From: Negaprion brevirostris
Taxonomy: Eukaryota
Length of the DNA stretch: 64,000 nt
NCBI GenBank assembly: GCA_030324005.1
Contig: JARDVH010000154.1
Location: forward strand, 26,731,841 to 26,795,840
Direction of reading: 5' to 3'
Positions within the stretch are counted from its first letter, which is position 1. Every line of letters starts with the position of its first letter. This document shows, one piece after another, positions 15,921-18,900 of this stretch. A program made the position numbers.

Positions 15921-18900
15921 TGAGTGTGGAACTCCGTATGATAACGTTTGCATTTATAAGTGGGGATTTGCTTATGAGTAGTTTTGGGAAAGGCAAAATG
16001 ATTGAAAGGCTTAGTGAAGCATGTCGTGAAATGAAATTTATATTGTGGCTTAATGCATTTGACCTAATCACTATATTGCCCTTGAACCAGAAGTTCCTTT
16101 CCAAGGTCATGGAAGCCATGACACCTCATTTTAAAACTTCCATGCAGATACAGGGGGTAATCCAAATTTCAGAATTCTCCTTGAACCTTTGCATGTGTGT
16201 AATCCTCCATGACAACCCTGTGGTATCTGTAACCATTTAAATCAAAAGAATATATTTGTACCGTAGGTAGGATTATGAGATCAGACACTGGCTGTTAGAA
16301 ATTTTAAACCCAGCAAATTGGCTCAAGGCTTAATATTGGGCGGCACAGTAGCACAGTGGTTAGCACTGCTGCTTCACAGCTCCAGGGACCTGGGTTTGAT
16401 ACCTGGCTCGGGTCACTGTCTGTGTGGAGTTTGCACGTTCTCCTCGTGTCTGCGTGGGTTTCCTCCGGGTACTCTGGTTTCCTCCCACAGTCCAAANNNN
16501 NNNNNNNNNNNNNNNNNNNNNNNNNNNNNNNNNNNNNNNNNNNNNNNNNNNNNNNNNNNNNNNNNNNNNNNNNNNNNNNNNNNNNNNNNNNNNNNNATCT
16601 CCCCTCATTCTTCTGAATTCCAATGAGTATAGCCCCAGTCTACTCAGTCTCTCCTCATAAGCCAACCCTCTCAGCTCCGGAATCAACCTAGTGAATCTCC
16701 TCTGCACTCCCTCCAGTACCAGTATATCCTTTCTCAAGTATTACATTTCAGTCAGCCCGCAGCAAAAATATCTTATTTCTGGAATTTTGTAAAGTGTCTA
16801 ATAGAATTTCCTTTCCTTCCAATTTGTTGCTTTATGATACAGGAAGTGACATGGTGGAGGCAGAGAAAGCAGGAATAAAGATCGTCACCTCGCCATACAC
16901 CATATTATTCACAAAGACCTCCAAGTATTACAAACCTGGAATGCCTTTTGATTTAATGGTACAAATACCTCTTTGCTTTGCCTTTCCATCTTTTCCTTCA
17001 CTGTGTTAGAGGAAAGGGATAAAGATTGTTTTTTTTCTCTGTTGCTTCTTATTTAAGGTTTTTGTGACGAATCCCGATGGATCACCAGCCAGGGGCATCC
17101 CTGTGAGAGCCAATAACGGAATGGTCGATTCGAACACACAGGCCGATGGTCTTGCCAGGCTGACAATCAATACGGTCGGACAACCACAAAATCTCCCAGT
17201 AAAGGTGAGCACGTTTAATATAGATTCATTAATATGACACAGAACGCAGCCTTCTGGCCTGTCGTAGGTGCCCGAAGCTGCTTTGGAAGAACAAAGAAAA
17301 TTACAGCACAGGAACAGGCCCTTCGGCCCTCCAAGCCTGCACCGACCGTGCTGCCCGACTGAACTAACACCCTGTTAAAGAACAAAGAAACAATCTCAAC
17401 TCAAAGCACATCCAGTGCTTAAACCCTAACACTCTCGCCTCCCACTCTCCCTGTGTACAGAGATGACAGTCAGATTCCTAATACATTCTTTAATCTTCCA
17501 GAGTGACGCAGATTCAAGGGAGATTCAAGGGAAAGACAGCCTTGTGTTTTATATACTGTATCGATCAGAACAATAATTAAAACATTTCATTAATGTGAAG
17601 TGTGAGGTTAGAGGAAATGTGATGTATTGAGTTAAATTACAGTGTTGAATAAAATGAGTCACTCTTTTCCCAAGAGATGGAAAGCTGAAGCTGTTTCTGG
17701 TCAGATTCTCATTTTTTTGCTTCCAAGTTATTTCAGAAATTTACAAAGACAAGCTAAACTGATTTAATGTCCAATGTTTCAAGGTTTACTCAGCTCTGTC
17801 TCTTATCTCATTGTAGTTTGTTGTGGAACAATAGGGGCAAAGATATTTATGCAACAAGTTGTTGTGATTAACAATGTACTGGCTGAGAGGGCGATAGAAA
17901 CAGCTTCCATGGTAACTGTCAAAGAATGGAATTGGATAAGTACTTGAAGAGGAAAAAAACCTGCAGAATGGGAATAAACAGATACTCATTCTCAGAGCCA
18001 GGGGACAAGCTTCTTTCGAAACATTCGCCAGTGAAGGTTATAAATCCAAGTCTTTATGTTTTTTGCCAATGTTGTGACGAGGTAGTGGGGGTGGGATTTA
18101 GAATTTTGGTCTTTGCAACCGTTGCATTAAGTTAGACAAGGCCCCAGGACCAGATGGGATCCATCCCAGGTTACTGCAGGAGGCAAGGGAAGAAATAGCT
18201 GGAGCCTTAACAGAGGGAAAGCGCAGTGGTTAGCGCTGCATCAGGGACCCAGGTTCAATTCCAGCCTCGGATCACTGTCTGTGTGGAGACTGCACATTCT
18301 CCCCGTGTCTGTGCGGGTTTCTTCCGGGTGCTTCGGTTTCCTCCCACAGTCCAAAGATGCGTGGGTTAGGTTGATTGGCCGTGCTAAAATTGCCCCTTAC
18401 TGTCCTAAGATGCTTAGGTTAGAGGAATTAATGGGTAATAATGTGTAGGGATATGGGGGTATGGCCTAGGTGGGATTGCGGTCGGTGCAGACTCGATGGG
18501 CCAAAGGGCCTCTTTCTGCACTGTAGGATCCTATGAATATTAGCCCATATATATGAATATTTGCTCCATACTTATGAGCAACTCTTGCTATCTCTCATTT
18601 TCAAGCTGGTCATTTTAATTCTTAGCACTTTCTTAATTTCTAAAGCACTTTGTTGTTTTATGTTCTCAATCCATCACTGTACAGTAGATTTTGAATAATT
18701 ATTTACTGTTGATACTGAGAGTTAAAGTGCTCTTTTTTCCCCCCCAATTTACATTTCACTGTCTCTCAGTTGGTGAATGGAGTATTGGAATTAATTAAGC
18801 ACCCTCACAAAGATCCCATGAAATGTGAGGAGGAACCTCTTAATCTGGACCAAAGAGCTAAAATCTGGGATACCTGACATTTCGGTTTATTTAGTGTTCT

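What the first reader, a model, noticed from the sequence alone, without database searches (positions are those of the whole stretch)
16741..17531. Two intact complement C3 exons plus their intron embedded in a SPOP intron
Seen: a 116-nt and a 147-nt exon with canonical ag/gt sites and a 99-nt intron, stop-free and in frame with each other, ~0.9 kb after SPOP coding exon 2 and on the same strand. I found no other C3 exon in the window. Known (from recall): the peptide and exon phases match the MG3-MG4 exon pair of vertebrate C3 (about exons 10-11 in human), and C3 is not normally nested in SPOP. Inference: the retained intron excludes a spliced-mRNA retrocopy. This leaves a recent genomic or pre-mRNA fragment capture (exon-shuffling intermediate) or a misplaced contig, because a 100-N gap lies ~250 bp to the left.
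Basis: partly seen in the sequence, partly recalled or inferred. Interest (0 to 1): 0.8.

Follow-up and report, generated by a model that had tools for sequence, protein, structure and literature searches.

The report
Stray C3 exons in SPOP intron
Two genuine complement C3 exons sit on a small, gap-bounded piece of a draft shark assembly inside an intron of the SPOP gene, and this is about as likely to be an assembly misplacement as a real but useless copy of a gene fragment.

Summary
Exons at 16843-16958 (116 nt) and 17058-17204 (147 nt) flank a 99-nt intron, and all four splice sites are AG/GT. Searched separately and never joined, they match human C3 beta-chain residues 314-351 and 352-394. 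They match Sphyrna zygaena C3A at 37/38 and 47/49 residues. No other C3 exon is in the window.

All nine SPOP coding exons are present, in order, on the + strand. The pair lies in SPOP's 10.7-kb phase-2 intron.

Productive exon shuffling is not supported: the pair enters in phase 1, leaves in phase 0 and is 263 nt long. Read from SPOP exon 2 it stops at the second codon.

The pair sits on a 5.1-kb sub-scaffold (16597-21715) between two exactly-100-N gaps, with no SPOP-specific sequence. Its right end and the next contig are the two halves of one inverted repeat, which is modest support for true adjacency.

I cannot separate assembly misplacement (0.5) from a real, young, non-functional DNA-level fragment copy (0.4). 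No tool here holds shark genomic DNA. Interest is low.

The parts
15798..15919 (+). SPOP coding exon 2 (MATH domain). It ends after the second base of a codon.
   Evidence: tblastn with the named SPOP P0094: 41/41 identical. Sequence read.
16338..16496 (+). SINE-like repeat, cut off by the gap.
   Evidence: 88% identical to 54682-54838; three further copies at 76-79%.
16497..16596 (.). Gap of exactly 100 N. This is the left boundary of the sub-scaffold that carries the C3 exons.
   Evidence: The flanks are unrelated to each other.
16597..16740 (-). Repeat-derived open frame of 48 codons. I recall it as a LINE ORF2 C-terminal region; no call names it.
   Evidence: 21/39 identical to the frame at 46370-46612(-), E 2e-10. 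Pfam shows nothing significant. The Atlas gives only a weak lead, 0.75.
16741..16842 (+). Unique intron-like sequence with a pyrimidine tract and an AG acceptor.
   Evidence: No in-window repeat.
16843..16958 (+). C3 exon (MG3 end / MG4 start), 116 nt. Phase 1 on entry, phase 0 on exit.
16959..17057 (+). Retained 99-nt GT...AG intron.
17058..17204 (+). C3 exon (MG4), 147 nt, phase 0 on both sides.
17287..17390 (-). 78-nt repeat-tail fragment flanked by a perfect 13-nt direct repeat. It looks like a small retro-insertion with a target-site duplication.
   Evidence: Direct repeats at 17287-17299 and 17378-17390. 17283-17331 matches 5882-5834 at 84%.
18220..18542 (+). Full-length SINE-like repeat.
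   Evidence: Five in-window matches at 76-82%.
18543..20275 (.). Sequence that is unique within the window, with no recognisable coding potential. Its true home locus would settle the question.
   Evidence: No in-window repeat. 0 of 37 ORFs of at least 45 aa across 17009-21319 have a Pfam match.
20276..20339 (.). 64-N gap with in-window-unique sequence on both edges.
21528..21715 (+). One arm plus the loop of an inverted-repeat (foldback) element. This is the right end of the sub-scaffold.
21716..21815 (.). Gap of exactly 100 N, the right boundary of the sub-scaffold.
21816..21978 (-). The other arm of the same inverted repeat. It opens the contig that carries SPOP exon 3.
   Evidence: 92% identical to 21528-21690 in inverted orientation.
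26609..26759 (+). SPOP coding exon 3. It starts with the third base of the split codon.

Best explanation
The two exons are the ordinary, functional MG3/MG4 exons of this shark's C3A-type complement C3 gene. Their position inside SPOP is an assembly artefact. Either the 5.1-kb sub-scaffold 16597-21715 was put into the wrong gap by long-range scaffolding, or the short left end of contig 16597-20275 was joined to SPOP-intron sequence through one of the repeats that follow the exons. On this reading nothing biological happens at this site: SPOP has a plain intron and C3 has its exons at its own locus. What is shown is the identity and intactness of the exons and the gap structure. The misplacement itself is inferred.
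For: 1. **No SPOP anchor.** The sub-scaffold lies between two gaps of exactly 100 N. I recall this as the usual mark of a join of unknown size; no call checked that. All 9 SPOP coding exons lie on other contigs.
2. **No continuity at the left join.** A SINE is cut by the gap, and an unrelated repeat in the opposite orientation follows it.
3. **The exons look fully constrained.**
   - 37/38 and 47/49 residues are identical to S. zygaena C3A.
   - Compared with 25 elasmobranch C3-like proteins, the three differences fall at variable positions and every invariant residue is kept.
   - There is no stop or frameshift, and all four splice sites are canonical.
4. **The pair would harm SPOP if real.** It is on the same strand, has usable splice sites, and would give a stop at the second codon (frame 1). 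SPOP is extremely conserved: the 7 exon alignments not read past a splice site are 95-100% identical to a bichir SPOP, and the other two drop only there.
5. **No insertion signature around the pair.** The direct repeats found do not bracket it, and there is no poly(A).
6. **Repeats start close by.** They begin about 10 nt after exon B and 100 nt before exon A. Short-read assemblies switch loci at such places.
Against: 1. **The right end fits the next contig.** The sub-scaffold ends in one arm plus the loop of an inverted repeat. The next contig, which carries SPOP exon 3, opens with the other arm, 92% identical.
   - The same arrangement is seen at the 100-N gap 59553-59652. The contig to its right carries SPOP exon 9; the piece to its left carries no exon, so that join is itself unverified.
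   - The partner arms at 21716 are closer to each other (92%) than to the arm at the other locus (83%).
2. **The inner 64-N gap has sequence unique within the window on both edges**. So the exon contig is probably truly linked to the contig that ends in the foldback arm.
3. **Local scaffolding looks accurate.** All 7 contigs that carry SPOP exons are in the right order and orientation.
4. **No C3 gene nearby.** No other C3 exon lies within 16.8 kb to the left or 46.8 kb to the right. A merely local mis-ordering of a neighbouring C3 gene is therefore unlikely. A long-distance misplacement is the rarer kind of error (inference).
Confidence: 0.5

Rival explanations
1. The placement is real. A young DNA-level copy, or an unspliced-RNA-mediated copy, of a C3 gene fragment (two exons, their intron and flanking intron) was inserted into SPOP intron 2. 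It sits there as a non-functional unprocessed pseudogene fragment.

One concrete route is an antisense retroelement in the C3 intron reading through the exons. Read antisense, the intron cannot be spliced out. The transcript would end in the next retroelement tail, and the whole would be retrotransposed.

Ectopic repair or a small segmental duplication are other routes.
For: - Foldback arms match across the right-hand gap, and the inner 64-N gap is unique-edged.
- 7 of 7 checkable contigs are correctly placed.
- The pair is flanked on both sides by repeat fragments lying on the minus strand, that is, antisense to C3. These are 16597-16740 and 17215-17400.
- Transduction of flanking DNA, exons included, by retroelements is a documented process (passages and reference list of PMC9311842).
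- C3 is multi-copy in cartilaginous fish, so extra copies do arise. Three C3-like genes lie on one Mustelus asterias chromosome, and a review notes multiple C3 forms (passages of PMC6795676).
Against: - No target-site duplication, tail or breakpoint could be found. The left end is hidden in a gap.
- There is no decay at all in 87 codons and four splice sites, so the copy would have to be very recent.
- A poison exon pair in a highly constrained gene should be selected against (inference).
- Antisense orientation of both repeats is also what ordinary intron litter at the true C3 locus would show.
- Retroelements whose 3' end is the kind of tail seen here usually need their own tail, and 3' transduction by them is rare (recalled, not tested).
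Confidence: 0.4
2. The pair is, or is becoming, a working part of SPOP. That would mean new coding exons gained by exon shuffling, or a regulated poison cassette.
For: The pair is on the same strand as SPOP. Its acceptors have 12/18 and 14/18 pyrimidines, and the second donor (AAG|GTGAGC) matches the consensus at 8 of 9 positions (read by eye).
Against: - Phase mismatch: the SPOP intron is phase 2, while the pair is 1/0 and 263 nt long.
- A stop comes at the second codon in SPOP's frame.
- Only 70 of 95 MG4 profile positions are encoded, so no whole domain is present.
- All nine normal SPOP exons are intact.
- No transcript data were available.
Confidence: 0.02
3. The pair is a processed (spliced-mRNA) retrocopy, or a chance open frame that only resembles C3.
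For: None beyond the bare fact of an isolated fragment.
Against: - The 99-nt intron and both outer splice signals are retained.
- E-values are 1e-14 and 1e-7 against solved C3 structures, and 9e-22 against shark C3A.
Confidence: 0.01

Closest known systems
Complement C3, C3A type of carcharhiniform sharks (Sphyrna zygaena C3A, P0001; Mustelus asterias 'venom factor-like', P0002)
   Same: Exon A equals residues 332-369 of P0001 at 37/38. Exon B equals residues 370-418 at 47/49. The exon junction falls between residues that are contiguous in C3. All residues invariant in 25 elasmobranch C3-like proteins are kept.
   Different: Only 87 of about 1650 codons are present. No other C3 exon is in 64 kb. 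The neighbours are SPOP exons.
Unprocessed pseudogene fragments and retroelement-mediated transduction of exons ('exon shuffling by L1 retrotransposition', Moran et al. 1999, seen only in the reference list of PMC9311842)
   Same: An isolated piece of a gene, with intron and splice signals kept, lies in an intron of an unrelated gene and is bordered by retroelement fragments.
   Different: No complete source element, no tail plus target-site duplication bracketing the fragment, and no second (parent) copy could be shown. The fragment is asymmetric in phase, so it cannot be a shuffling module.
Scaffold mis-joins and misplaced small contigs in short-read draft assemblies
   Same: The sub-scaffold is small and bounded by fixed-size gaps. 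It has repeats at its ends and nothing that ties it to the host gene.
   Different: The right-hand join is between the two arms of one inverted repeat, and every checkable contig nearby is correctly placed. That is not what a random misplacement predicts.

Membership tests
Complement C3 (C3/C4/C5/A2M superfamily) | Sequence closer to C3 than to other superfamily members | tested here: met
   For each exon, 16 of 16 PDB sequences at E<=0.01 are C3 or cobra venom factor, and none is C4, C5 or A2M. The best database protein is shark C3A at 96%.
Complement C3 (C3/C4/C5/A2M superfamily) | Macroglobulin domain MG4 | tested here: met
   Exon B scores 31.6 bits against a cut-off of 24.7. Exon A scores 22.9 bits, below the cut-off. 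Together they cover profile positions 1-70 of 95, so the domain is incomplete.
Complement C3 (C3/C4/C5/A2M superfamily) | A whole gene: the other MG domains, anaphylatoxin, thioester domain and C345C | tested here: not met
   tblastn of 7 and of 17 full-length C3 proteins found only this pair in the window.
Processed retrocopy | Introns lost, poly(A) tail present | tested here: not met
   The 99-nt GT-AG intron and both outer splice sites are present, and there is no poly(A).
Retroelement 3' transduction / exon mobilisation | Source element next to the fragment, a terminal tail, and a target-site duplication bracketing the whole | tested here: inconclusive
   Repeat fragments in one orientation lie on both sides. 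No bracketing direct repeat was found. The left end lies in the gap.
Unprocessed pseudogene fragment / segmental duplicate | A parent copy elsewhere in the same genome | not testable with these tools
   No tool holds shark genomic DNA. Among the best 120 of 1958 C3 hits, none is from this species.
Exon-shuffling module | Symmetric intron phases that match the host intron, and a whole domain | tested here: not met
   The pair is phase 1/0 and 263 nt long, while the host intron is phase 2. A stop comes at codon 2 in the host frame, and only 70/95 of MG4 is encoded.
Assembly mis-join | Reads, mate pairs or long reads contradict the join; single-copy depth; a hole at the true locus | not testable with these tools
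   Only indirect signs are available. The joins are 100-N gaps with no host-gene sequence. Against this, the inverted-repeat arms match across the right-hand gap.

The most novel reading that the evidence does not exclude
The placement is real. A very young, unspliced two-exon fragment of the C3A gene has been copied into an intron of the ultra-conserved SPOP gene of a carcharhiniform shark. It may have been carried by antisense read-through of a retroelement that ended in a second element's tail. That would be a caught-in-the-act example of raw material for exon shuffling, and a potential poison exon pair in SPOP, in a lineage where such events are hardly documented.
Probability: 0.4. Interest if true: 0.4.

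Novelty: new member of a known kind. Interest (0 to 1): 0.2.

Why it matters
If the placement is an artefact, the only value is practical. It flags a mis-join in a draft shark assembly that would leave a hole in the C3 gene model and could seed a false SPOP-C3 chimera in annotation.

If it is real, it is a dated, intact example of how unspliced exons move between genes in a slowly evolving vertebrate genome. It could then be used to ask whether SPOP tolerates a poison exon pair.

Either way it does not change what is known about C3 or SPOP function.

Tried and rejected
- **A second C3 fragment at 560-628.** It was the best non-pair hit (E 0.05, 25 residues with a 2-residue gap). It lies in G-rich repeat-like sequence and was rejected as noise.
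- **An upstream extension of the tblastn alignment to 16695.** It shows only scattered identities and is not an exon.
- **A C3 protein lacking exactly residues 332-418,** which would mark the hole left by a misplaced contig.
  - All 33 elasmobranch rows among the 120 listed of 1958 hits cover the region fully.
  - All 25 of the 25 I compared have both exons.
  - None is from this species, so the test had no power.
- **Pfam on the repeat-derived frames.** Nothing significant.
- **Pfam on the sub-scaffold's ORFs.** I scanned 37 of the 47 listed ORFs of at least 45 aa.
  - Eight that touch N were dropped before the scan.
  - Two that overlap exon B (17010-17237 on + and 17082-17225 on -) were also left out.
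  - 0 of the 37 scanned had a family.
- **ESM Atlas on 16597-16740(-).** Best score 0.75, a lead only.
- **Rfam on 14750-22500.** No hits.
- **Direct repeats as target-site duplications around the pair.** None bracket it.
- **Near-identical duplicates in the window.** Only the foldback family.
- **Literature.** Searches gave background only. I found no paper on a C3 fragment in SPOP, but no search was aimed at exactly that.
- **Not attempted or not available.**
  - The joined (spliced) peptide was not built or searched.
  - Genome contigs (bacteria and archaea) was not used, as it is irrelevant here.
  - Supplements of papers were not seen.

Full report
**What the window is.**
- The sequence is repeat-rich vertebrate DNA with 20 runs of N. 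Five are exactly 100 N, five exactly 10 N, and ten have other sizes.
- The C3 peptides are closest to hammerhead shark C3A, and SINE-like repeats recur through the window. I take it for a carcharhiniform shark draft assembly, not human.
- tblastn with a named fish SPOP (P0094) finds all nine SPOP coding exons on the + strand, in order. They lie at 11439-11516, 15798-15919, 26609-26759, 31749-31883, 40425-40601, 43713-43775, 44423-about 44550, 49687-49830 and 60546-60686.
- Of the nine alignments, seven are 95-100% identical. The exon 1 and exon 7 alignments drop to 93% and 83% only where tblastn reads on past a splice site into the intron.

**The observation.**
- The exon pair is exactly as described: 16843-16958 (116 nt), a 99-nt GT-AG intron, then 17058-17204 (147 nt).
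- Each exon is open in one frame only, and the frames are continuous across the intron.
- I searched the two exons separately throughout. The joined peptide was never built or searched.
- Exon A matches human C3 beta chain residues 314-351 (E 1.4e-14). Exon B matches residues 352-394 (E 1.4e-7). So the exon junction falls between residues that are neighbours in C3.
- All 16 of 16 solved sequences hit by each exon are C3 or cobra venom factor.
- Pfam calls MG4. Exon B is above the curated cut-off and exon A just below it. Together they cover profile positions 1-70 of 95.
- The best database protein for exon B is Sphyrna zygaena C3A, one of 7 proteins at E<=0.001 among 31 candidates.
- Identity to S. 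zygaena C3A is 37/38 for exon A and 47/49 for exon B, at residues 332-369 and 370-418.
- No other C3 exon is in the window. The best other hit (560-628, E 0.05) is noise.

**State of the exons.**
- I compared them exon by exon with 25 elasmobranch C3-like proteins. The window sequence keeps every invariant residue.
- It differs from S. zygaena C3A only at three positions that also vary among the other species.
- There is no stop or frameshift, and no splice site is lost. This is what a working C3 gene looks like. A copy would have to be very young.
- C3 is multi-copy in cartilaginous fish. Three C3-like genes lie on one Mustelus asterias chromosome, and a review notes multiple C3 forms (PMC6795676, passages). 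The window pair belongs with the C3A type.

**Could it work inside SPOP? No.**
- SPOP exon 2 ends after two bases of a codon, and exon 3 supplies the third at 26609. The host intron is therefore phase 2.
- The pair needs one base from the exon before it, ends in phase 0, and is 263 nt long.
- In the frame SPOP would impose, exon A reads K then stop (frame 1).
- The pair does not encode a whole domain.
- If real, it is at best inert, and at worst a poison exon pair in a very conserved gene.

**Assembly context.**
- The pair lies in SPOP's intron 2 (15920-26608, 10,689 nt).
- It sits on contig 16597-20275. That contig is joined by a 64-N gap to contig 20340-21715. The two together form a 5,119-nt unit between two gaps of exactly 100 N.
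- This unit holds no SPOP exon. Of the 47 ORFs of at least 45 aa listed over it, I scanned 37 and none had a Pfam family. Eight touching N and two overlapping exon B were not scanned.
- Rfam finds nothing in 14750-22500.
- Repeats crowd the exons:
  - a repeat-derived frame at 16597-16740 on the minus strand;
  - repeat tails at about 17215-17400, one of them bracketed by a perfect 13-nt direct repeat;
  - a SINE at 18220-18542.
- The left join shows no continuity. A SINE is cut by the gap and an unrelated repeat follows.

**Evidence that pulls the other way.**
- Two of the 20 gaps have flanks that are inverted copies of each other, and both are 100-N gaps: 21716-21815 and 59553-59652.
- At the first, the sub-scaffold ends in one arm plus the loop of a foldback element. 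The next contig, which carries SPOP exon 3, opens with the other arm at 92% identity.
- At the second gap the flanks make up one element in the same way. The contig on its right carries SPOP exon 9, but the piece on its left carries no exon, so that join cannot be checked independently.
- The 64-N gap has sequence on both edges that is unique within the window.
- All 7 contigs that carry SPOP exons are correctly ordered and oriented.
- These points favour true adjacency. They are not decisive, because assemblers break palindromic repeats at the same internal point in every copy. Halves from different copies would therefore also fit each other.

**Weighing.**
- For an artefact:
  - there is no anchor to SPOP;
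  - both joins are fixed-size gaps;
  - the exons are perfectly preserved;
  - the pair would be harmful if spliced;
  - no insertion signature was found;
  - there are several routes to error, such as a misplaced unit or a contig that switches locus at a repeat.
- For a real copy:
  - the foldback arms fit across the right-hand gap;
  - the inner gap has unique edges;
  - the local scaffolding is accurate;
  - no neighbouring C3 gene is present that could explain a merely local mis-ordering.
- My rough base-rate reasoning (inference, with no data from this assembly) puts the two close together. I give the artefact 0.5, a real non-functional fragment copy 0.4, a functional role in SPOP 0.02, and a retrocopy or chance frame about 0.01.

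**What stayed unchecked.**
- The whole assembly, read depth, and other shark genomes.
- The human exon numbers 10-11. I saw only that human C3 has 41 exons on chromosome 19, with the beta chain in exons 1-16 (PMC9589888, passage).
- That retroelement transduction can move exons rests on passages and the reference list of PMC9311842.
- The names 'LINE ORF2 C-terminal region', 'SINE' and 'foldback', and the meaning of 100-N gaps, are my recall or description. No call gave them.

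Noticed in passing
window 21528-21978 and 59464-59856: A foldback element family has arms of about 165-190 nt and a loop of about 21-25 nt. Both copies in the window are interrupted by a 100-N gap near the loop. The arms are 92% identical within the first copy and 83-98% between copies. Such elements seem to be a recurrent cause of contig breaks in this assembly.
   Followed up: partly
window 2553-2639 and 36000-36086: The same repeat (88.5% identical over 87 nt) ends the contig on the left of two gaps of almost equal size, 509 and 506 N. 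This suggests one unresolved repeat interior of about 0.5 kb at both places.
   Followed up: no
window 17287-17390: A perfect 13-nt direct repeat (AAGAACAAAGAAA) brackets a 78-nt repeat-tail fragment. It looks like a severely 5'-truncated retroelement insertion with an intact target-site duplication.
   Followed up: partly
window 11439-60686: The complete SPOP coding region (9 coding exons) is present. Seven of the nine exon alignments are 95-100% identical in protein to a bichir SPOP. The exon 1 and exon 7 alignments are 93% and 83% only because they run past a splice site. The gene spans about 49 kb across 7 contigs.
   Followed up: yes
window 1-2000: A strongly G-over-C skewed stretch (GC skew 0.41 over 1-2000 and 0.27 over 2001-4000) contains long open frames on both strands. 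It looks like one strand of a purine-rich repeat. No function was sought.
   Followed up: no
It has no apparent link to the exons.
   Followed up: no
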